Virus record (IMG/VR): IMGVR_UViG_2778261451_000006
Strand: one strand, 5' to 3'
DNA length: 36,228 bases
Source of the DNA: a virus
Lineage: Duplodnaviria > Heunggongvirae > Uroviricota > Caudoviricetes
The position numbers and the translations under genes were made by a program. The notes beneath the pieces were generated by a model. That model saw nothing but the letters and a program-made list of their open reading frames with translations, made no database searches and had not been told where the DNA came from. This document shows positions 1,369 to 19,383 of the stretch, piece after piece. Numbering within the stretch: the first letter of the stretch is position 1; each line of letters opens with the position of its first letter.

Positions 1369-1444
1369 GCCGATATAGCTCAGTTGGTAGAGCAGCGCAT
1401 TCGTAATGCGAAGGTCGTAGGTTCGACTCCTATTATCGGCACCA
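1369..1444 (+). tRNA. thrW: tRNA-Thr (anticodon CGT)
   Basis: 76-nt sequence GCCGATATAGCTCAGTTGGTAGAGCAGCGCATTCGTAATGCGAAGGTCGTAGGTTCGACTCCTATTATCGGCACCA with cloverleaf arms, CGT anticodon and 3' CCA; follows proA as in E. coli. Confidence 0.9.
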
Positions 1445-1458
1445 TTTAAATCAATAAG

Positions 1459-2622
1459 TTACACATCATTAGTACCTTCCTTATTTTTTGACTGGGACAA
1501 ATTTGGGACCGATGGGTTCAGGATCGAGTCTATTTGCCGTGCGTGTTCGGTAAGGTGATTAGGTGCAAGGTGAGCATATCGACGAACCATTTCGATAGAC
1601 TCCCAGCCTCCCATTTCCTGTAACACTGACAACGGGACTCCGGCTTGAACCAGCCAACTTGCCCAGGTGTGTCTCAAGTCGTGAAATCTGAAATCATCAA
1701 TACCAGCCCGTCTCAGCGCCGCTTTCCAGGCTGTGTTTGCGTCATACCGCATCTTCCTTACTGTTGGCGCTTTCGTTCCGTCTGGTTTGGTACAGCTTTC
1801 CTTGTACACAAATACCCAACGGTGATGATTCCCGATTTGTTTTTTCAAAACGCGACATGCAGTATCATTCAGCGCAACGCCAATTGCGCGGTTTGATTTA
1901 CTCTCTTCCGGGTTTATCCATGCCACCCGGCGCTGCATATCTATTTGTTGCCATTCAAGGTTGATGATGTTCGAGCGTCTTAAGCCTGTTGCCAGTGCAA
2001 ATTCAACAACAGACTTTAATGGCTCCGGACATTCATCAATCAGCCTTTGTGCTTCATGGGGCTCCAGCCAGCGGATCCGTTTATTCTTTGGTTGGGGCAC
2101 TTTAATAATTGGTGCCTTATCCAGCATTTTCCATTCACGCTCTGCGGCTCTTAGTAGGGCCTTTATAAATGAAAGATGCGTAGCCTTCGTTGCAACGGAC
2201 GCTGGTTTTGGCGTGTATTCTGGAACAGGTTTCCCTTTTTTTCTGCATGCTTCTGCCCTGAGTTTCCAGTTTTCCTCATGACGCCGGTTCGTCATTTTCT
2301 GCATTGCTGAATAAATTTTTGATTCAGTAATGTCTCTTAGTTGCATTCCTGCGAAATGTTGAAGCCAGAATCCGATCCGGCTTTTGTCATCGTCCAGTGA
2401 TTTTTTATGTGCTTTCTCTTCAAGCCACCTGACACACGCTTCCTCGAACGTTATATCAGGTATTTCACCAAGTTTGCTGACCCGCCATGCTTCAGCCTTT
2501 AGCTTGTCATGGAGTTCTGTCGCCTGCCTTTTGTCCTTTGTTCCAAGAGACTGTTTAAATCTTTTACCGTTCGGCAATGTGAAACTGGCGTACCATATTT
2601 CACCTCTGCGGAAGAGTGACAT
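1459..2622 (-). CDS. int: phage integrase, tyrosine recombinase (P22 Int-like)
   Basis: 387-aa ORF ending 15 bp from thrW; C-terminal [15 protein letters not shown]...RYAHL tyrosine-recombinase motifs; N-terminus [14 protein letters not shown] recalled as P22-type Int. Confidence 0.95.
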
Positions 2623-3516: not shown

Positions 3517-4070
3517 TTGCGTAACTCCGATAACTCGTTAAAGCGTTCCATAAACATCCCGTAGGCATGGCCCGGTGCCAGTGGAATCACGTTGAACATC
3601 TCTGTTGCCGGGATACCTTCCAGTACAGGCCAGAAAGAGCCATCATCAAGCCCGAGATCGCGGCGTTCGGTTGCCAGCATGATGAGATCGGCATATTTCA
3701 CGGGCGTACTCATAACTGGGGGTAACCCGTATTTCTCACGGATTACGGCGTCTATTTTTTCTTCCATTTGTTTATAGTCAGGAAGAAGGCGTTTCAGTGG
3801 TGCGGGAATGTCCTGGCAATACGCTTCTGTTGCATCATGCATTAACGCTTCAAAAGCAAATTCCTGCGGCACCAGCTGGCTGCAAAGAACCGCATGTTGG
3901 GCGACGCTGTAGAAGTGCGAAAGATGACCGGCAAAGCGACAGATATTTGAAAGGGAAACCGCGATATCGTTAATATCGATGTCGTCTTTATTTATCCTGT
4001 CATAATAAAAATGCTTCCCGGAAAAAGTTTTAATAAATGACATTTTGTTCTCCACGTATATGCGCTGCAC
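3507..4070 (-). CDS. HD-domain phosphohydrolase (YfdR-like 5'-deoxynucleotidase)
   Basis: 187-aa ORF with HD-type metal-binding residues (H..H, HD, D spacing in ...CRFAGHLSHF...ALMHDATEAY...). Confidence 0.75.
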   Translation of the reverse strand: MQRIYVENKMSFIKTFSGKHFYYDRINKDDIDINDIAVSLSNICRFAGHLSHFYSVAQHAVLCSQLVPQEFAFEALMHDATEAYCQDIPAPLKRLLPDYKQMEEKIDAVIREKYGLPPVMSTPVKYADLIMLATERRDLGLDDGSFWPVLEGIPATEMFNVIPLAPGHAYGMFMERFNELSELRKCA

Positions 4071-4995: not shown

Positions 4996-5060
4996 AATAA
5001 GTCCTCACTATATAAAGATATTCAGTGATGAGATAAATAATCAGTTTATTAAGAACGATA

Positions 5061-5423
5061 TTAATGACCTGCTGCGCGTAGTTTTCCGTCAGGTTCACCG
5101 GCAAGAGTCAGTAATTGTCCCTGGTCTTCCTGCAGAATAGTCAGGCGACCACCGCGATTGACATACATCGGCGTTTCGGTGGTGTCTTCTTCAGAAATTT
5201 TCCCGCGGTTAGTCGGGCGAACATATGAGAGTTTGTGTTTGATTTTCACACGGTTCTCATCAAACGGTTCGATTTCCAGATTGAGTGAGACCTTCCCTTT
5301 GGTTTTCGTGTTCATCACACCGGAAGCGACTTCACTGAGAACTGCGCCGATTTTGGTTTCAAATACGCCGCCGTCCAGCTCCCCGATAAATGCCTGCACA
5401 TCAGTACTGCGTTCGCTAGCCAT
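5061..5423 (-). CDS. hypothetical early protein (YfdP-like), 120 aa
   Basis: Start moved to ATG at 5423 (MASERS...) with AGGAG 7 nt upstream; the 226-aa ORF-track version has a non-protein-like N-terminal extension. Confidence 0.6.
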   Translation of the reverse strand: MASERSTDVQAFIGELDGGVFETKIGAVLSEVASGVMNTKTKGKVSLNLEIEPFDENRVKIKHKLSYVRPTNRGKISEEDTTETPMYVNRGGRLTILQEDQGQLLTLAGEPDGKLRAAGH

Positions 5424-5891
5424 TTTGCTGCTCCTCATCATATCGACCCTGCAAGGTCGGTTGGTTTCTCCACAAAACAGAGAAGAACACCTGCGGTGGC
5501 AGCCGCCCGGATGGATTGGGTTATGAGCCCGTCGTCCGGTGATGCTCTTCTCTGTTTTGTAAAAAGGACGGTACCAGCCGTAAGCAAGGGTACAAACTGG
5601 TACCGCCAGGACTACACACAGCATAAAGTTGTGGTGCCGGGTGCCTCCCGGTGCCTGGCGAAGGTTGCACACCAGGCGGGTGGGTATCCACAGAAGGTCG
5701 ACTGTCAGCCTCAACCTTAACCCGCGTGCGCTGAGCCGCATTCACCACAACGCTAAGGATTCTCTCTGGTTGAAAATACTTAGCTGTTATGTGCCTGCTT
5801 TTAGCCACATCAGGCGAGGTGGACCTGGTTATTCCCCAACAACAAGGATTCGGTTAATCTGGTTATCCCCAACAACGCAAAAGGAAAAGAA

Positions 5892-6326
5892 ATGTCCGGT
5901 AATATCTATACGCTGTACAAATCCCACTGTGAAAATGTTGGAAAGTATCGGGGCATTGAAATCAGTGGGGTAGTGTCATCAGTCGAAATAAGCAAAGTTG
6001 AATCAAGGGCAACATTACTTACTCTTTTGGACCTTGTCTTACATGAGCACCGGAAGAAATTCGGCACTCCCTATAATCAGTTGAATGGGAAAAAGGCTCT
6101 GGTTCACCTTATTCTGATGAAGCATCACTGGATGCCAAAACAGATTAATGAGATGAAATTTGATGAACTTCTTCTTTCAATTCAGGATGAACTCACACTT
6201 GATAAAATAAGCGTAACCGCCCAGAAATTTTTAGATTATCGAGACTGGAGATCACAAATTCATCACTTTGATGATTTTGACGAAAATGAATGGGATCCTA
6301 ATTTGTCTGCACAATATCTAAAGTAA
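5892..6326 (+). CDS. hypothetical protein, AT-rich moron, opposite strand to the early-left operon
   Basis: 144-aa ORF with AAGGAAAAG upstream; visibly AT-rich against GC-rich flanks; two ~18-nt direct repeats immediately upstream; plus-strand terminator at 6564–6587. Confidence 0.5.
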   Translation: MSGNIYTLYKSHCENVGKYRGIEISGVVSSVEISKVESRATLLTLLDLVLHEHRKKFGTPYNQLNGKKALVHLILMKHHWMPKQINEMKFDELLLSIQDELTLDKISVTAQKFLDYRDWRSQIHHFDDFDENEWDPNLSAQYLK

Positions 6327-6504
6327 CATCCTGTGATAAAACCGTGATTTCCTGATCCAGTTTTTTTAAGGAGTCTATTGTTTCCTGTCGATAAGACAGC
6401 ACTTCACGAAGCTGGTTTATAGCTGCCAGCTTCTTTGTCATCCACTCATAAATTTCCTCATCTGTGTAGCCAGGCGCGACGATTTTGGGTTCTGTTTTGT
6501 GCAT
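6298..6504 (-). CDS. hypothetical small protein (68 aa), convergent with the 144-aa gene
   Basis: ATG at 6504 with GAGGAG 7 nt upstream; charged, likely helical sequence; 3' end overlaps the 144-aa gene by 29 nt. Confidence 0.4.
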   Translation of the reverse strand: MHKTEPKIVAPGYTDEEIYEWMTKKLAAINQLREVLSYRQETIDSLKKLDQEITVLSQDVTLDIVQTN

Positions 6505-6563
6505 TTCACATCTCCTCAAGTTATCAGTTACTTGTTGATGGGGACCAGATTGTTAAAGAGCTA

Positions 6564-13404: not shown

Positions 13405-14157
13405 ATGAACCTTGAAGCCTTACCAAAATATTACTCCCCAAAATCTCCAAAATTGAGTGATGACGCACCGGCGACAGGCTCGGGTGGTTTAACAATTACA
13501 GATGTGATGGCTGCGCAGGGGATGGTGCAGTCGAAAGCACCGCTTGGGTTTTCCTTATTCCTGGCAAAAGTTGGTGTTCAGGATCCTCAGTTTGCGATTG
13601 AAGGTCTGCTCAATTACGCGATGGCACTGGATAACCCGACATTGAACAAATTGAGTGAAGAAACCCGGCTACAGATCATTCCTTACCTTGTGAATTTTGC
13701 CTTTGCTGATTATTCCAGGTCTGCGGCAAGTAAGGCTCGCTGTGAGCATTGTGCTGGTACTGGATTTCATAATGTATTGCGCGAAGTGGTGAAACACTCC
13801 AGAAGCGGGGAGTCTGTTATCAAGGAAGAGTGGGTGAAGGAACTATGTCAGCATTGTCATGGTAAGGGAGAAGTCAGCACAGCGTGCAGAGGGTGTAAGG
13901 GTAAAGGTATTGTCCTGGATGAAAAAAGAACCCGGCTTCATGGCACGCCTGTTTATAAGATTTGTGGGCGTTGCAATGGAAACCGGTTTAGCCGTTTACC
14001 AACCACACTGGCGCGGCTTCATGTCCAGAAGCTGGTACCAGACCTGACGGATTATCAGTGGTACAAAGGATATGCAGATGTCATTGATAAACTGGTTACA
14101 AAGTGCTGGCAGGAGGAAGCTTACGCTGAAGCACAATTGAGAAGGGTGACGAGATAA
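13405..14157 (+). CDS. Q: late-gene antiterminator Q
   Basis: 250-aa ORF with multiple CxxC zinc-binding motifs (CEHCAGTG, CQHCHGKG, CRGCKGKG, CGRCNG); sits before the lysis genes. Confidence 0.8.
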   Translation: MNLEALPKYYSPKSPKLSDDAPATGSGGLTITDVMAAQGMVQSKAPLGFSLFLAKVGVQDPQFAIEGLLNYAMALDNPTLNKLSEETRLQIIPYLVNFAFADYSRSAASKARCEHCAGTGFHNVLREVVKHSRSGESVIKEEWVKELCQHCHGKGEVSTACRGCKGKGIVLDEKRTRLHGTPVYKICGRCNGNRFSRLPTTLARLHVQKLVPDLTDYQWYKGYADVIDKLVTKCWQEEAYAEAQLRRVTR

Positions 14158-14371: not shown

Positions 14372-14641
14372 ATGAAACTGACCTCTATCCATCTTGAAAT
14401 ACTACGTCGAGTGAATGAATTGCAGCCAAAGGATTCTAGAATTCAGGCTGCATCATTACCTCATCTCTCAGCAAAAGAGGTTAATTTTGCTATTTCAGAT
14501 CTTGCTGATATAGGTTTTATCGATGTTATACGAAGCAAATCTGCCGAAGGTGGATTGATTGCTAATGAGATAACGTCAAAAGGTTTTGCTTTTTTGAGTG
14601 AGATTGGCGCTGAAAAAAATTCATCGATGAGCACTCATTGA
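14372..14641 (+). CDS. hypothetical small protein (89 aa), AT-rich moron
   Basis: ORF with AGGAGAACATT-ATG ribosome-binding site; AT-rich; perfect palindrome GGCTGCCAATTGGCAGCC follows at 14656–14673. Confidence 0.5.
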   Translation: MKLTSIHLEILRRVNELQPKDSRIQAASLPHLSAKEVNFAISDLADIGFIDVIRSKSAEGGLIANEITSKGFAFLSEIGAEKNSSMSTH

Positions 14642-14838: not shown

Positions 14839-15645
14839 GTGGAATCGAAAGTGTCATATTTTTACAGAAGCAAGAATATTTCAGGTGTTTCTATAAATGA
14901 AGATAGCTTGATTAGCTTAAGCACGGCAATTGTCGAACGCTGCGTTAAAATGAATGAGCAAGCTCAAAAGGAAAGTAGGGAAGTTTGTGCTCAATGTGTT
15001 TTTTTTATTTTGTTCGATGGTAAGGGGTATAAAGTTGATTCTATCGGTGAGCTTGTGAAATACTTTAGACAGGCCACTAGGATTGATCAAATAATTTTTA
15101 CTATTGAAACTTATCAAAGTCGACAGTCTAACAGGATGAATGGATCTTGGATGGAGCTACGAATTGATGAGAGGAATTCAAATAGCAGCACAATGATTGT
15201 AGCATCGGAAGATAATGAGTGGGTTGACTCGTTATGGATTACGATTCAGGATTTACTTAACAAGTGCAAAAATAAATTTAGATTTTTTAGAACAGCTTGG
15301 ACTATGTTAAGTATCCAGATTTCAGGTGTGACAGTTGGCTTTTTGCTTAGCTTATGGACAGCCTCAAAACTGGCGCCAAAACTATCAATCGATGGTGCAT
15401 TTGCTTTATCATTTATTTGTATCTTTATTTTGTTTTCGAACTTATGGAGCTTTGCTATTCCATTAATAATTAAGCTTATCGACTTTTTGTTTCCTAGTGT
15501 TAAGTTTGTTATTAATGGTAAAAATTACTTTCACTGGAGTGTCCAGGCTATAATTGGAGCGATTGCCAGTGCGGTTATATTGTATTTTATTAGCTCCATG
15601 TTGCTTTTTGCATTAGAAATGTTAAATAGCATCATTAAGAAATAG
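14839..15645 (+). CDS. hypothetical membrane protein: ~150-aa soluble N-terminal domain plus three predicted C-terminal TM helices
   Basis: 268-aa AT-rich ORF (start uncertain: GTG 14839 or 14851); hydrophobic segments LSIQISGVTVGFLLSLWTA, AFALSFICIFILFSNLWSFAIPLII, VQAIIGAIASAVILYFISSMLLFAL. Confidence 0.6.
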   Translation: MESKVSYFYRSKNISGVSINEDSLISLSTAIVERCVKMNEQAQKESREVCAQCVFFILFDGKGYKVDSIGELVKYFRQATRIDQIIFTIETYQSRQSNRMNGSWMELRIDERNSNSSTMIVASEDNEWVDSLWITIQDLLNKCKNKFRFFRTAWTMLSIQISGVTVGFLLSLWTASKLAPKLSIDGAFALSFICIFILFSNLWSFAIPLIIKLIDFLFPSVKFVINGKNYFHWSVQAIIGAIASAVILYFISSMLLFALEMLNSIIKK

Positions 15646-16140: not shown

Positions 16141-16408
16141 CCCGACAGCAACTATTAATGCGCTGTTATGTGCTTGTGTTGTTATTACTCTGATGTTTTA
16201 TCGTCGTGGTGATTCGCGGCATCGTCCGTGGGTTTCACGTTTAGCCTGGCTGATTACTGTTACATACAGTGCTGTTCCGTTGGCCTATCTCTGTGGGATT
16301 TATCCCCATTCCTCATGGCCCATTATCGTGGCGAACACTATTTTACTTTCCGTGCTGGTGGCTGTCAGAGGCAACGTTGCACGTCTGGTTGATCATCTGA
16401 GGCACTAA
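16127..16408 (+). CDS. second holin-like / lysis-associated membrane protein
   Basis: 93-aa ORF from GTG with GGGGAGG upstream; two to three hydrophobic segments; overlaps neighbours on both sides. Confidence 0.5.
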   Translation: MELNDPTATINALLCACVVITLMFYRRGDSRHRPWVSRLAWLITVTYSAVPLAYLCGIYPHSSWPIIVANTILLSVLVAVRGNVARLVDHLRH

Positions 16409-17022
16409 TGAACCAACAATTATTTCAAAAGGCGGCTGGTATTAGCGCCGGGCTGGCTGCGCGCTGGTTTCCGCACATTGATGCGGCGATGAAGGAATTC
16501 GGCATTACAGTACCAGCGGATCAGGCAATGTTTATCGCTCAGGTAGGCCATGAGTCGATGGGGTTTAGCGCCGTAGTTGAAAATTTTAACTACACACCAT
16601 CTGCGCTTGTGGCGACGTTCGGAAAGAGGATCACACAGCAGCAGGCTGATGCCCTTGGCAGAACATCCGGACATGCAGCTCGTCAGGATGCTATTGCCAA
16701 TCTGGTGTATAGCAACCGACTGGGTAACAAAGCACCAGGTGATGGCTGGAAATATCGTGGTAGAGGATTAATTCAAATCACTGGCCTCCATAATTATCGC
16801 ATCTGTGGCGCGGCGCTGAAGTTAGATCTGGTGACTTCACCTGAACAACTGGAACAGGAGCTACAGGCCGCGCGCTCAGCTGCATGGTTCTACACCTCTA
16901 AAGGTTGCATGGTCTACGGTGCCGATATTAATCGTGTTACGCGCATCATTAACGGCGGTCTGAACGGTATTGAGGATCGTAAGGTTCGATACAACAAGGC
17001 GCGGGCGGCGCTGCTGGTATGA
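16408..17022 (+). CDS. endolysin, glycoside hydrolase family 19 (chitinase-like lysozyme)
   Basis: 204-aa ORF; GH19-type segments (FIAQVGHESMGF, WKYRGRGLIQITGLHNY, INGGLNG). Confidence 0.85.
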   Translation: MNQQLFQKAAGISAGLAARWFPHIDAAMKEFGITVPADQAMFIAQVGHESMGFSAVVENFNYTPSALVATFGKRITQQQADALGRTSGHAARQDAIANLVYSNRLGNKAPGDGWKYRGRGLIQITGLHNYRICGAALKLDLVTSPEQLEQELQAARSAAWFYTSKGCMVYGADINRVTRIINGGLNGIEDRKVRYNKARAALLV

Positions 17023-17411
17023 AGATGAGTTATTGGGCGCTTATTTTAACGTTTATTGCTTGTATTGCTGGTGGTCTTGTCTGGTCAGCGAATCACTACC
17101 ACGGAAAGTTTCTGGAGGAGCAGAAGCGTGCTGACGCTGCGGAACAGCGAGCTGATTCTACTGAGGCTATCACCGCGAATGTTCTGCGTACTATGGCAAT
17201 AACGAACATCATTCAGGAGGCGAATCAACATGCAAAACAGCAGATCGCACTGGAGTCACAGAGAACCCAGGAAGATATCAAAGTGGCTGTTGCGGATGAT
17301 GATTGTGCTCTACGCCCTGTGCCTGCTGCCGCTGCTGACCGGTTGCGCCGGTACGCGGACAGTTTACGTGCCAGTTCCGGTGATACCACTACCGGCGAAC
17401 CTGACCGCTGA
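17019..17411 (+). CDS. i-spanin (Rz-like)
   Basis: 130-aa ORF; N-terminal TM anchor (YWALILTFIACIAGGLVW) then charged coiled-coil-like region; overlaps the endolysin stop. Confidence 0.7.
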   Translation: MKMSYWALILTFIACIAGGLVWSANHYHGKFLEEQKRADAAEQRADSTEAITANVLRTMAITNIIQEANQHAKQQIALESQRTQEDIKVAVADDDCALRPVPAAAADRLRRYADSLRASSGDTTTGEPDR

Positions 17412-17601
17412 AACCCCGCAACCGGTTATTCCTGATCCATTGACCTACGGTGGAAGCTTGGATTTGAATGTGAGTCTGTTGTCGGCTCTGGCTGCCTGTA
17501 ATAGTGATAAAGCTGATATTCGTAAAATTGAGGCAGAGAGGAGCTGGCCATTAAGCTGTAAAGCGGAAAGACCGCAGCAAGTAGTGTCAATGCAGCAGTA
17601 A
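17296..17601 (+). CDS. o-spanin (Rz1-like lipoprotein), overlapping the i-spanin in another frame
   Basis: ATG-ATG at 17296; lipobox LLTGC; Pro-rich mature region; unusually long at 101 aa. Confidence 0.5.
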   Translation: MMIVLYALCLLPLLTGCAGTRTVYVPVPVIPLPANLTAETPQPVIPDPLTYGGSLDLNVSLLSALAACNSDKADIRKIEAERSWPLSCKAERPQQVVSMQQ

Positions 17602-17871
17602 TGACGCTGCCCCGAATACTCAAAGTTGCTGGTAGCCAGTTTCAGGTAAAAAGCTGAGAGCGCACTGGTGAGGGTTAACGGGAAGAAGCGCACCGGTGCT
17701 CTAGGCTGATAGCCAGTCAGCTTCCGGTTAGTTATGAGGGATTCACGAGATACCCCTGACACATGGTCTCAAGGGCATGATCGCGGCCATTGCGAAAGTG
17801 TGGATGCAGAAAATAATGAAAAGCAGCTCAATATGAGCCGCTTTGATTTTCCGCTCTTGTTGAAATGAAAG

Positions 17872-18153
17872 TTAGCTACCTGACCCCATTCTGTAAGTCA
17901 TAGTCACAAAACCAGGCTTTTCAGGGTCAGCGCTTATTGTTGTCTGGATATTATGAGATGAAATCTCAGAGGATCCGTTTTTTTGGGTAATAGTGATATG
18001 GCTACCATTTTCATACTCAAAGTACTTAACGGTATTTCCATTAACTACAGACTCTTCAGCTTTAACTAAGCCTTTATCATCAATGGTGATCTTGGAAATT
18101 TCTTCCTCAACCTTCATTTCACCACTTTTTGCATCAAATTGAATTTTTGGCAT
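17872..18153 (-). CDS. hypothetical protein (93 aa), reverse-oriented AT-rich orphan gene
   Basis: ATG at 18153 with GGGAGAAG about 8 nt upstream; Lys/Glu/Ser/Thr-rich; opposite strand to the late operon. Confidence 0.45.
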   Translation of the reverse strand: MPKIQFDAKSGEMKVEEEISKITIDDKGLVKAEESVVNGNTVKYFEYENGSHITITQKNGSSEISSHNIQTTISADPEKPGFVTMTYRMGSGS

Positions 18154-18412
18154 GTTTTCTTCTCCCAAGAATTGAGTATTTTCTTATACCACAAAATACT
18201 CATGCTAAACACAGTAACCTACTGGAAGCCGTAGTTTGGTGATGGGTATATATATAATGATGGGTTAAAAACCTGGTCTGATGAGGGAAAACAAATTGTG
18301 CGTAATCGCCTAAAACCAAGCTGACACCGAATCGGATTCAAGTTCAGTACTGGCCATCACACTCAATTCAAGCTACTAGAATTCGCTAGCGTTTATTTAT
18401 TTTGGAACACCC

Positions 18413-18763
18413 ATGCCACCACGAATCCCAAAGGCCTGCCGTGTTCGCGGCTGCCGCTCTATAACCACAGACCCGTCAGGTTATTGCGAAAGCCACAAAA
18501 GCGAAGGCTGGAAGCAATACAAACCTGGACAATCCCGTCATCAGCGCGGCTACGGTTCGAAGTGGGACGTTATCCGCGCGCGTGTGCTGAAACGTGACAA
18601 AGGTTTATGTCAGTTATGTCTGCGTGCCGGTGTGGTGCGTGAAGCGAAAACCGTTGATCACATCATCCCTAAAGCGCATGGCGGCTCTGATGCCGACAGT
18701 AATCTGCAGAGCCTGTGCTGGCCGTGTCATAAGGCGAAGACGGCCCGTGAACGGCTGAAGTAA
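18413..18763 (+). CDS. HNH endonuclease (terminase-associated)
   Basis: 116-aa ORF; Cys/His HNH motifs (CRVRGC, CQLCLRAG, VDHIIPKAHGG, NLQSLCWPCH); directly before the small terminase. Confidence 0.85.
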   Translation: MPPRIPKACRVRGCRSITTDPSGYCESHKSEGWKQYKPGQSRHQRGYGSKWDVIRARVLKRDKGLCQLCLRAGVVREAKTVDHIIPKAHGGSDADSNLQSLCWPCHKAKTARERLK

Positions 18764-18888
18764 GAACCAGTTCCCACTGCCAGAGGGGAGGGGCGGGTCA
18801 AATCCCTGTGACCTGACGTCTTCCGGACTGCCCGCCCCATCGTTTTTTTATACCCGCGAAAAATGAAATTTAACCAGGAGTGCCGCAT
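18764..18888 (+). other. putative cos / packaging-site region with GC stem and T-tract
   Basis: Inverted repeat GGGGCGGG (18790–18797) / CCCGCCCC (18831–18838) followed by ATCGTTTTTTTA, between HNH and terminase genes. Confidence 0.3.
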
Positions 18889-19383
18889 ATGGCTGGAACG
18901 GCGGGGCGTTCCGGGCGTCGCCCCAAGCCAACGGCGCGCAAGGCGCTGGCCGGAAACCCCGGCAAGCGAGCCCTGAATAAAGATGAACCTGTTTTTACGC
19001 CCATCAAAGGTGTTGAGCCACCGGAGTGGTTCGCTGAAGAAGATCTCCCTCTCGCTACGATCATGTGGCAACTGACAACTAAAGAACTCTGCGGTCAGGG
19101 CCTGCTGTGCGTGACTGACCTCGCGGTGCTTGAGCGGTGGTGCGTGGCCTACGAGTTCTGGCGACGTGCCGTGAAAAATATTGCCAGACAGGGCAACACC
19201 ATCACCGGTGCAATGGGCGGTATGGTCAAAAATCCTGAGCTGACCGCCAAAAAAGAACAGGAGTCCGAGATGAGCAGCACGGGGGCAATGCTCGGACTCG
19301 ACCCCAGCAGCCGCCAGCGTCTGATTGGCCTGGCGGGACAGAAGAAAGCCACTAACCCGTTTCTGAAAATCATCGAATCATGA
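18889..19383 (+). CDS. terminase small subunit
   Basis: ATG at 18889 with AGGAG 8 nt upstream; basic N-terminus; stop overlaps the large-subunit start. Confidence 0.8.

What the first reader, a model, noticed from the sequence alone, without database searches (positions are those of the whole stretch)
17602..18412. Reverse-oriented AT-rich orphan gene between the spanins and the HNH/terminase block
A 93-aa ORF (17872–18153, minus strand; GGGAGAAG site and ATG) sits alone against the late operon in an 800-bp gap and is more AT-rich than its neighbours. Genes inserted against the flow of a late operon are typically independently expressed cargo such as lysogenic conversion, defence or exclusion functions. 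The protein is hydrophilic, Lys/Glu/Ser/Thr-rich, with no signal peptide.
Basis: partly seen in the sequence, partly recalled or inferred. Interest (0 to 1): 0.45.

Follow-up and report, generated by a model that had tools for sequence, protein, structure and literature searches.

The report
Antisense orphan moron plus structured RNA

Summary
A 93-codon ORF (17872-18153, minus) with a GGGAGAAG ribosome site lies antisense between Rz1 and the HNH/terminase genes. It has 37% GC against 52% for the window.

It is a real gene. The only homologue found among 1.84 billion representative proteins is 42% identical and aligns without gaps. That homologue sits in the same lysis-to-terminase slot, also antisense, in a prophage with a different packaging module. 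Codon-position conservation is 0.51/0.72/0.36, as expected for coding sequence.

The cassette (about 17805-18412) has its own terminator and a conserved promoter-like motif. It fills a cargo hot spot that in other prophages is empty or holds unrelated genes. That makes it a classic moron, comparable to lambda bor. Its function is unresolved: the product is a small, acidic, Cys-free protein, probably beta-rich, with no family or fold match.

The gap is not otherwise empty. Positions about 17585-17805 on the plus strand are a structured RNA of roughly 220 nt. It is conserved in temperate phages of E. coli, Klebsiella, Citrobacter, Pectobacterium and Providencia and has strong compensatory base-pair support. 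It always lies sense inside N- or Q-antiterminated operons, and it has no Rfam match. This RNA is the more novel item.

The parts
17872..18153 (-). Orphan gene: 93 aa, about 10.2 kDa, pI 5.1, no Cys or Trp, no signal peptide. RefSeq lists it as WP_033866617.1, 'hypothetical protein'.
   Evidence: ORF. RefSeq annotation. The homologue P0003 (91 aa, 42% identity, E 2e-19) aligns without gaps from Met-Pro onward. Identity by codon position is 0.51/0.72/0.36, and pN is 0.37 against pS 0.88.
18159..18166 (-). Shine-Dalgarno site GGGAGAAG, 5 nt upstream of the ATG
   Evidence: Read from the sequence. L008 has GAAGGGA at the equivalent position.
18179..18191 (-). Conserved motif TGGTATAAGAAAA, which resembles an extended -10 (TGnTATAAG). 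It lies about 30 nt upstream of the ATG and is the candidate promoter of the orphan.
   Evidence: The same motif, TGCTATAAGAAAA, sits at the same distance upstream of the 42%-identical homologue, although the flanking sequence is otherwise diverged. The consensus promoter scan did not call it, because the -10 ends in G rather than T. It therefore remains inferred.
17820..17844 (-). Intrinsic terminator hairpin with 11 pairs, followed by TCATTATTTT, 28 nt after the orphan's stop codon. On the plus strand the same hairpin is followed by GATTTT, so it may work in both directions.
   Evidence: Terminator scan.
17805..18412 (-). The AT-rich orphan cassette as a unit of horizontal exchange. On the left it begins where homology to the RNA element ends. 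On the right it ends exactly at the HNH start codon.
   Evidence: Homology to other prophages stops at query positions 202-205, which is window 17803-17806. Homology resumes at query position 1394/1395, which is window 18412/18413. The junction sequences differ in every prophage compared. The cassette is identical or differs by 1 nt in 10 loci.
17585..17805 (+). Conserved structured RNA element of about 220 nt, in the same sense as the late operon. Helices in the window: P1 17592-96/17606-10 (the Rz1 stop codon lies in its loop), P2 17611-13/17672-74, P3 17693-96/17724-27, P4 17704-08/17718-22, the core hairpin inside 17735-17760, P7 17768-71/17778-81 and P8 17787-90/17800-03.
   Evidence: Alignments. 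On 24 sequences, 97.6% of cells are paired. Twelve of 39 pairs have changes on both sides, against 0-4 in the slid controls, and 0 of 500 shuffles reached the observed values. On 27 sequences, 13 of 28 pairs have compensatory changes. Many G-U pairs place the structure on the plus strand. Indels are not multiples of three. nhmmer matched window 17585-17810. There is no Rfam match.
17536..17578 (+). The 5' extension of the RNA element, lying inside the Rz1 coding sequence. It has an SD-like GAGAGGAGC (17536-44), a vestigial mini-ORF ATT-AAG-CTG-TAA (17550-61) and the conserved GACCGCAGC (17570-78).
   Evidence: In relatives this position carries a strong GGAGG, then ATG, 0-3 further sense codons and a stop. 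The peptides differ between phages: MHQ, MVH, MKH, MKK, MK and M. In the window's clade the start codon is ATT or ATA.
17230..17601 (+). Rz1/LysC o-spanin ORF (left neighbour). Its last 16 codons run into the RNA element.
   Evidence: L003 has CCATAAAGC where the window has CCATTAAGC, so L003 has a stop codon there.
18413..18763 (+). HNH endonuclease (right neighbour). It is followed by the P27-family small terminase and the large terminase.
   Evidence: PF01844.

Best explanation
The interval is a mosaic junction built from two independent modules.

**Module A (about 17805-18412, minus strand)** is an autonomous moron. It is an AT-rich, horizontally acquired cassette in the cargo hot spot between the lysis genes and the HNH/terminase genes. 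It has a promoter-like motif, a Shine-Dalgarno site, a 93-codon gene and an intrinsic terminator. It is transcribed antisense to, and independently of, the Q-dependent late operon, so it can be expressed from the repressed prophage. The product is a small, acidic, cytoplasmic protein, probably beta-rich, with no catalytic motifs. It most likely acts by binding another macromolecule. The phage does not need it for lytic growth. I think its most likely benefit is to the lysogen, through exclusion of or defence against other phages or through modulation of the host.

**Module B (about 17536/17585-17805, plus strand)** is a conserved structured RNA carried on the late transcript. It is unrelated to the orphan gene and marks the upstream edge of the variable slot.

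**Shown:** the anatomy, the coding status, the accessory and mobile nature of the cassette, the hot spot, and the RNA structure.

**Inferred:** promoter activity, expression in lysogens, the binding mode of action and the benefit to the host.
For: **It is a real gene.**
- The sole homologue, P0003, aligns without gaps from Met-Pro onward.
- Codon-position identities are 0.51/0.72/0.36, and pN is 0.37 while pS is saturated at 0.88.

**Position and orientation are conserved.** P0003 lies antisense between the Rz/KilA-N genes and the metallopeptidase/DUF2280/Terminase_3 genes.

**It is an autonomous unit.**
- A terminator follows 28 nt after the stop codon.
- The motif TGnTATAAGAAAA is conserved at the same distance from the ATG in both homologues, while the surrounding DNA has diverged.

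**It is accessory.**
- Only 2 of the 1328 complete E. coli genomes that match the query spanning its flanks carry it.
- The slot is empty in L016. It holds a GrlR-family gene in L017, a ClpP-like gene plus a 182-aa ORF in L018, an S1 peptidase in L002 and a 131-aa ORF in L003.

**It looks foreign and recently spread.**
- GC is 37-38% against 52% for the window.
- The cassette is identical in 10 loci whose prophage backbones differ.

**It is kept in prophages that look defective.** In L009 and L014 the large terminase is called at 498 aa instead of 577 aa.

**Known precedent (my own knowledge).** Lambda bor occupies the same position after Rz, in the same antisense orientation, and is expressed in lysogens.
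Against: - There are no expression data.
- The consensus scan found no sigma-70 promoter upstream of the gene, and the candidate -10, TATAAG, lacks the usual final T.
- No database hints at a function: PADLOC, Pfam, PHROGs and NCBIfam all gave nothing significant.
- The family is tiny, with two sequence types, both from E. coli. The evidence for selection therefore rests on a single pairwise comparison.
- One 72-aa frameshifted allele exists on a single metagenome contig.
Confidence: 0.75

Rival explanations
1. The orphan is a counter-defence or host-takeover protein used by the phage itself. For example, it could be an acidic DNA or protein mimic that inhibits a host restriction or defence factor. 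Its own promoter would let it be expressed early after infection or induction, rather than in the lysogen.
For: The protein is small and acidic (pI 5.1 and 4.9 in the two homologues), has no Cys and has no enzymatic motifs. An independent promoter-like motif would free it from late timing. From my own knowledge, many anti-defence proteins are orphans of this size.
Against: From my own knowledge, anti-defence genes of lambdoid phages usually sit in the early operons, not between the lysis and packaging genes. The net charge is only about -4 to -6, far from that of typical DNA mimics. No structural match to known inhibitors was found.
Confidence: 0.12
2. The act of antisense transcription matters more than the protein. 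Convergent transcription from the cassette, together with its bidirectional terminator, would damp or insulate read-through from the lysis genes into the HNH/terminase genes when Q is absent.
For: The hairpin at 17820-17844 looks like a terminator on both strands. The cassette lies directly upstream of HNH, whose own ribosome site is weak. Other occupants of the slot are also sometimes antisense.
Against: The protein sequence is conserved over its whole length, with a coding-type substitution pattern. Selection on transcription alone does not explain that. Prophages with an empty slot manage without it.
Confidence: 0.08
3. The ORF is a chance open frame or a decaying pseudogene in junk DNA at a recombination junction.
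For: The family is extremely small. One frameshifted allele exists. No domain hits were found.
Against: A 42%-identical homologue aligns without gaps over the full length, keeps the same start (MP...) and has a ribosome site. The third codon position is the least conserved and the second the most. The exact protein is listed in 527 blocks of the assembly collection.
Confidence: 0.04

Closest known systems
Lambda bor, the serum-resistance lipoprotein moron located just after Rz/Rz1 and transcribed against the late operon (from my own knowledge of the lambda map)
   Same: It has the same slot, immediately downstream of the spanins and before the packaging genes. It has the same antisense orientation, is a single small gene, is dispensable for lytic growth, and is a self-contained transcription unit.
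   Different: There is no sequence relationship: no Bor family was among the Pfam hits. Bor is an exported lipoprotein, whereas this protein has no signal peptide, no lipobox and no Cys at all. Bor's expression in lysogens and its phenotype are demonstrated; here neither is.
Morons of HK97/HK022-type lambdoid phages as defined by Hendrix and colleagues: extra genes with their own promoter and terminator and deviant composition, present in one phage and absent from its relatives (my own knowledge)
   Same: It is present or absent among otherwise syntenic prophages. It has lower GC and its own terminator. The insertion boundaries fall exactly at gene borders.
   Different: The promoter is only inferred. 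The encoded family is new and restricted to E. coli prophages.
HK022 put RNAs and the lambda nut sites: cis-acting RNA elements placed just downstream of promoters of antiterminated phage operons (my own knowledge). This comparison concerns the RNA element, not the orphan gene.
   Same: The RNA element is always sense to the operon and lies in N- or Q-antiterminated operons. In four loci it sits between a pL-like promoter and the N gene; a nutL-like boxA/boxB was read by eye in L046 and L030, and only a boxB-like hairpin in L027 and L036. Elsewhere it sits just after a tR'-like terminator downstream of Q. It is often followed closely by an intrinsic terminator.
   Different: It is about 220 nt with at least 7 helices, against about 65-70 nt and two stem-loops for put. 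nhmmer found no copy in the stretch of HK022 searched, positions 24000-40751. It coexists with N/nut and with Q. It also occurs in mid-operon after the lysis genes, as in this window. No function has been tested.

Membership tests
Moron (autonomous accessory cassette of a lambdoid prophage) | Present in some phages and absent from otherwise syntenic relatives | tested here: met
   Only 2 of the 1328 complete E. coli genomes that match the query spanning its flanks carry it. The slot is empty in L016 and holds other genes in L002, L003, L017 and L018.
Moron (autonomous accessory cassette of a lambdoid prophage) | Own transcription terminator | tested here: met
   An 11-pair hairpin with a T-run lies at 17844..17820 on the minus strand, 28 nt after the stop codon.
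Moron (autonomous accessory cassette of a lambdoid prophage) | Own promoter | tested here: inconclusive
   TGnTATAAGAAAA is conserved upstream of both homologues. The consensus scan, however, called no sigma-70 promoter on the minus strand.
Moron (autonomous accessory cassette of a lambdoid prophage) | Nucleotide composition differs from the host phage | tested here: met
   GC is 36.9% for the ORF and 38.0% for the cassette, against 51.8% for the window. GC3 is 0.33.
Moron (autonomous accessory cassette of a lambdoid prophage) | Expressed from the repressed prophage | not testable with these tools
   This needs RNA-seq or a reporter assay in a lysogen.
Bor / lambda-bor-like lipoproteins | Signal peptide with a lipobox Cys, and a match to the Bor family | tested here: not met
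   The protein has no Cys and its N-terminus is hydrophilic. No Bor family was among the Pfam hits.
Known anti-phage defence proteins (PADLOC-DB) | Significant match to a defence-system model | tested here: not met
   The only hit was an E = 0.018 partial match to a Type I specificity subunit for the window protein. The homologue matched nothing.
Hexapeptide-repeat (left-handed beta-helix) proteins | Pfam match above the gathering score | tested here: not met
   PF25441 scored 19.5 bits against a cut-off of 27. The homologue P0003 had no Pfam hit.
Any Rfam 15 RNA family (for the RNA element at 17585-17805) | Covariance-model match at or near the gathering score | tested here: not met
   Nothing was found at E<=1 in window 17400-18900. 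For two other copies, only hits far below threshold and driven by terminator hairpins appeared.
HK022 put-type antiterminator RNA (for the RNA element) | Two-stem-loop RNA of about 70 nt downstream of pL/pR that makes RNA polymerase resistant to terminators | tested here: not met
   The size and architecture differ. nhmmer found no copy in HK022 positions 24000-40751. The functional property cannot be tested here.
Lambda bar-type minigenes (for the SD/mini-ORF in front of the RNA element) | Shine-Dalgarno site, ATG, one to three sense codons and a stop | tested here: inconclusive
   Most relatives meet this, for example GGAGGGTAAGAAAATGCACCAGTAA. In the window itself the start codon is ATT (17550-17561).

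The most novel reading that the evidence does not exclude
The plus-strand element at about 17585-17805 belongs to an undescribed family of structured RNAs in temperate phages of Enterobacterales. Carriers include mEp237, mEp213, phiKO2, RothC/D, Stx2c phages and many prophages.

The element lies only inside antiterminated operons. It occurs in three contexts: between a pL-like promoter and the N gene (with nutL-like sites visible in some loci), just after the terminator that follows Q, or after the lysis genes. It is often preceded by a strong ribosome site with a 1-4-codon mini-ORF and followed by a terminator and variable cargo.

It could be a cis-acting element that controls transcription processivity or RNA processing, or an abundant phage RNA that binds a host factor. 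It might also be mobile, because in two loci 16-17-nt direct repeats flank its body.
Probability: 0.5. Interest if true: 0.7.

Novelty: new member of a known kind. Interest (0 to 1): 0.42.

Why it matters
**The orphan gene.** It adds one more example to a well-known class: cargo genes carried antisense between the lysis and packaging genes. It also defines a new, very narrow protein family whose function could be tested cheaply by deletion, over-expression and phage challenge. The Rz-to-HNH slot is documented here as a rich hot spot. Its occupants include a GrlR-like regulator, an S1 peptidase, a ClpP-like protein and several unknowns. The slot could therefore be mined systematically for lysogenic-conversion or defence genes.

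**The RNA element.** This would matter more. Lambdoid regulatory regions are among the best-studied DNA in biology. Even so, a 220-nt RNA with strong covariation lies in pL leaders and after Q-dependent terminators without being in Rfam. If it affects antitermination, RNA stability or host factors, it would add a component to the classic lambda regulatory scheme.

Tried and rejected
**Searches on the orphan protein**
- Pfam, PHROGs, NCBIfam and PADLOC gave only sub-threshold noise: Hexapep_UGP3_C at 19.5 bits against a cut-off of 27, and a Type I S-subunit at E = 0.018.
- The exhaustive HMMER search of 1.84 billion representatives found one true homologue besides the near-identical frameshift allele P0002. 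The other six hits were long repeat proteins (fn3, Big_5, Flg_new, DUF903 repeats and others). Their scores come from repeated beta-hairpin-like stretches, so I rejected them as homologues.
- A profile search with the three-sequence alignment added nothing.
- A profile search of PDB sequences returned 0 hits at E<=10.
- tblastn against 50,697 phage records found nothing.
- The P0003-type gene is absent from complete E. coli genomes.

**Structure**
- The AlphaFold2 model of the homologue alone failed (pLDDT 37), so the fold is not corroborated.
- The afdb50 library was unavailable.

**What the RNA element might be**
- It has no tRNA or tmRNA features and no Rfam match.
- It is not the pR'-tR' short RNA, because it lies downstream of the tR'-like terminator.
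- The Pas, AgvB, AsxR and STnc100 prophage sRNAs were considered. AgvB, AsxR and STnc100 are in Rfam and did not match. The Pas sRNAs are about 84 nt and end in their own terminators, unlike this element.
- Full-text searches for its core sequence and for topical terms found no description.
- nhmmer found no copy in HK022 positions 24000-40751.
- Thermodynamic stability alone is unremarkable (z = -1.2). The case rests on covariation.
- A protein-coding reading was rejected because the indels are not multiples of three.

Full report
**1. The observation**

The window is a lambdoid, HK97-like prophage lying next to tRNA-Thr (1369-1444) and an integrase ORF. Its late operon runs on the plus strand:
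- Q (13405-14157)
- two holins and a GH19 endolysin (16408-17022)
- Rz (17019-17411)
- Rz1/LysC (17230-17601)
- HNH endonuclease (18413-18763)
- P27-type small terminase and the large terminase

It runs from 17872 to 18153 on the minus strand, with 93 codons, an ATG start, and GGGAGAAG 5 nt upstream. It is clearly AT-rich: 36.9% GC for the ORF and 38.0% for 17815-18412, against 51.8% for the window. The protein is hydrophilic (GRAVY -0.63) and acidic (pI 5.1). It has no Cys or Trp and no hydrophobic N-terminus.

**2. Is it a gene?**

Word-indexed searches of 5.8 billion proteins found only near-identical copies. An exhaustive HMMER scan of 1.84 billion cluster representatives found one true relative besides the near-identical frameshift allele P0002. 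This is P0003: 91 aa, 42% identical, E 2e-19. The remaining hits were long repeat proteins whose scores come from repeated beta-hairpin-like segments, and I discarded them.

The two proteins align without a gap from Met-Pro to the C-terminus. At the DNA level, identity by codon position is 0.51/0.72/0.36. Non-synonymous divergence is 0.37, while synonymous sites are saturated at 0.88. That is the signature of a translated gene under purifying selection.

P0003 is encoded in an E. coli prophage with a different packaging module (metallopeptidase, DUF2280, Terminase_3). It occupies the same place, between the lysis genes and the terminase genes, and it too points against the late operon. Both genes have a ribosome site. 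Both also have the motif TGnTATAAGAAAA about 30 nt upstream of the ATG, inside DNA that is otherwise diverged.

An 11-pair hairpin followed by a T-run lies 28 nt after the window gene's stop codon. The gene is therefore a self-contained unit. The promoter is inferred, because the simple consensus scan did not call it.

**3. Accessory nature and the hot spot**

The 811-bp interval is found complete in only 2 of 5426 complete E. coli genomes, where RefSeq annotates the ORF as hypothetical protein WP_033866617.1. The query spanning its flanks (window 17019-19383, Rz through the small terminase) matched 1328 genomes. In sampled prophages with the same flanks, the slot holds:
- nothing (L016)
- a GrlR-family regulator on the plus strand (L017)
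- a ClpP-like gene plus a 182-aa ORF, both on the minus strand (L018)
- an S1 peptidase on the plus strand (L002)
- a 131-aa unknown ORF on the minus strand (L003)

Homology on the right resumes exactly at the HNH start codon, and each occupant brings its own upstream sequence.

The exact protein is listed in 527 blocks of the assembly collection. In every place examined it has this same context, on prophage backbones that differ elsewhere. The cassette is identical or differs by 1 nt in 10 loci. Two of those prophages have a shortened large terminase, 498 aa instead of 577 aa.

No sequenced phage record encodes a relative. All of this fits the definition of a moron. From my own knowledge, the closest textbook case is lambda bor, which sits just after Rz/Rz1 in the same antisense orientation.

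**4. What the protein does**

This is unresolved.
- Pfam, PHROGs, NCBIfam and PADLOC gave nothing significant.
- AlphaFold2 gave an all-beta model of moderate confidence (pLDDT 66). The homologue modelled alone failed (pLDDT 37).

I commit to the following reading. It is a lysogen-expressed accessory protein that works by binding a partner. An exclusion, defence or host-modulating role is the most likely benefit. I put about 0.75 on "autonomous moron encoding a real protein" and only about 0.25-0.3 on the defence or exclusion role specifically.

The rivals are a phage-used counter-defence protein (0.12), a role for the antisense transcription and bidirectional terminator rather than the protein (0.08), and a spurious ORF (0.04).

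**5. The rest of the gap: a structured RNA**

The first roughly 205 nt after the Rz1 stop codon are 90-93% identical in seven other E. coli prophages that carry different cargo. They are also 76% identical to DNA just downstream of gene Q in phage mEp237.

The core 26-mer occurs in 31 IMG/VR contigs and in the reference genomes of Citrobacter youngae and Pectobacterium polonicum. A more divergent subfamily is present in Klebsiella phages RothC/D and phiKO2, in Stx2c phages, in mEp213 and in a Providencia phage.

The evidence that it is a folded RNA and not a coding sequence:
- Indels are not multiples of three.
- On 24 distinct sequences, 97.6% of cells in the consensus structure are paired.
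- Twelve of 39 pairs show changes on both sides, against 0-4 in the slid controls, and 0 of 500 shuffles reached the observed values.
- With the divergent subfamily added, 13 of 28 pairs are compensatory.
- Many G-U pairs place the structure on the operon-sense strand.
- Rfam 15 has no match, even at permissive thresholds, for three different copies.
- I found no description in the literature searches. This cannot exclude a description in papers the library does not hold.

**6. Where the RNA sits**

Pfam scans and promoter scans confirmed three contexts.
- (a) Between a pL-like promoter and the N gene, in L027, L030, L036 and L046. In L046 and L030, boxA/boxB-like sequences were read by eye and recognised from my own knowledge of lambda nutL; L027 and L036 show only a boxB-like hairpin.
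- (b) Downstream of Q and of a tR'-like terminator, in mEp237, L021, L025 and L039.
- (c) Downstream of Rz-type spanins, in the window, L019, L035 and L037.

The element is always in the sense orientation. It is often followed within 5-20 nt by an intrinsic terminator, and then by variable genes.

In contexts (b) and (c) it is preceded by a strong GGAGG, an ATG, 0-3 further sense codons and a stop. The peptide sequences are not conserved.

In the window this mini-ORF starts with ATT (17550-17561). The same A-to-T difference removes the Rz1 stop codon seen in L003, so Rz1 runs 16 codons further and ends in the loop of helix P1.

In L030 and L046 a 16-17-nt direct repeat flanks the body of the element.

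The window holds a single copy. Its function is unknown. A cis-acting role in transcription processivity or RNA processing, or a role as an abundant RNA that binds a host factor, are hypotheses only.

**7. Verdict**

The orphan is a new member of a known kind, a moron in a known hot spot. It encodes a new, very narrow protein family of unknown function, and on its own it is of modest interest.

The interval also contains a conserved structured RNA that appears to be uncatalogued. This is the more novel item and deserves its own follow-up.

Noticed in passing
window 17585-17805 (+), with a 5' extension from about 17536: A conserved structured RNA of about 220 nt in temperate phages of Enterobacterales. 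It has strong compensatory base-pair support, no Rfam match, and always lies sense inside N- or Q-antiterminated operons.
   Followed up: partly
window 17536-17561 (+); for example L006 about 2415-2440 and L028 about 3716-3737: A strong Shine-Dalgarno site and a mini-ORF of 1-4 codons (MHQ, MVH, MKH, MKK, MK, M) precede the RNA element in most contexts. The peptide is not conserved but the position is. In the window the start codon is ATT.
   Followed up: partly
window 17551-17601 (+): Rz1/LysC is 16 codons longer than in the related prophage L003, because TAA has become TTA. Its stop codon now lies in the loop of the first RNA hairpin.
   Followed up: partly
L030 and L046 (IMG/VR contigs), flanking the RNA element body: A direct repeat of 16-17 nt, (A)CTCACCAGGACGGTGA, lies on both sides of the element body in the pL leader, just before boxA/boxB-like nutL sequences. 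This looks like a duplication made on insertion. It is not seen in the other contexts.
   Followed up: partly
window 14839-15645 (+): A second AT-rich insert (about 34% GC) lies between Q and the holins. It is a 268-aa ORF with a hydrophobic C-terminal half. It is absent from the otherwise near-identical prophage of strain E19025 (L001) and present in L009, L011 and L015. It has no Pfam or PADLOC hit.
   Followed up: partly
window 14372-14641 (+): An 89-aa ORF downstream of Q has only a sub-threshold DUF2513 match (21.8 bits against a cut-off of 29.6).
   Followed up: no
L009 and L014, large terminase gene (locus coordinates 5041-6537): The large terminase is called at 498 aa instead of 577 aa in two prophages that still carry an identical orphan cassette. 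These prophages may be defective.
   Followed up: no
P0002 (ENA metagenome contig, 1282 bp): A 72-aa frameshifted allele of the orphan is seen on a single contig. Its sequence diverges after residue 55. It may be an assembly error or a rare inactivating mutation.
   Followed up: no
window 1369-1444 (+) and 1459-2622 (-): tRNA-Thr(CGT) is followed directly by a 387-aa minus-strand ORF in the position of an integrase. This marks the left end of the prophage.
   Followed up: no
L054 (phage mEp213) 2347-2541: In mEp213 the RNA element lies in the early-left operon, between small ORFs and a second, N-like antiterminator gene. The phage therefore carries two N-type genes with the element between them.
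   Followed up: no
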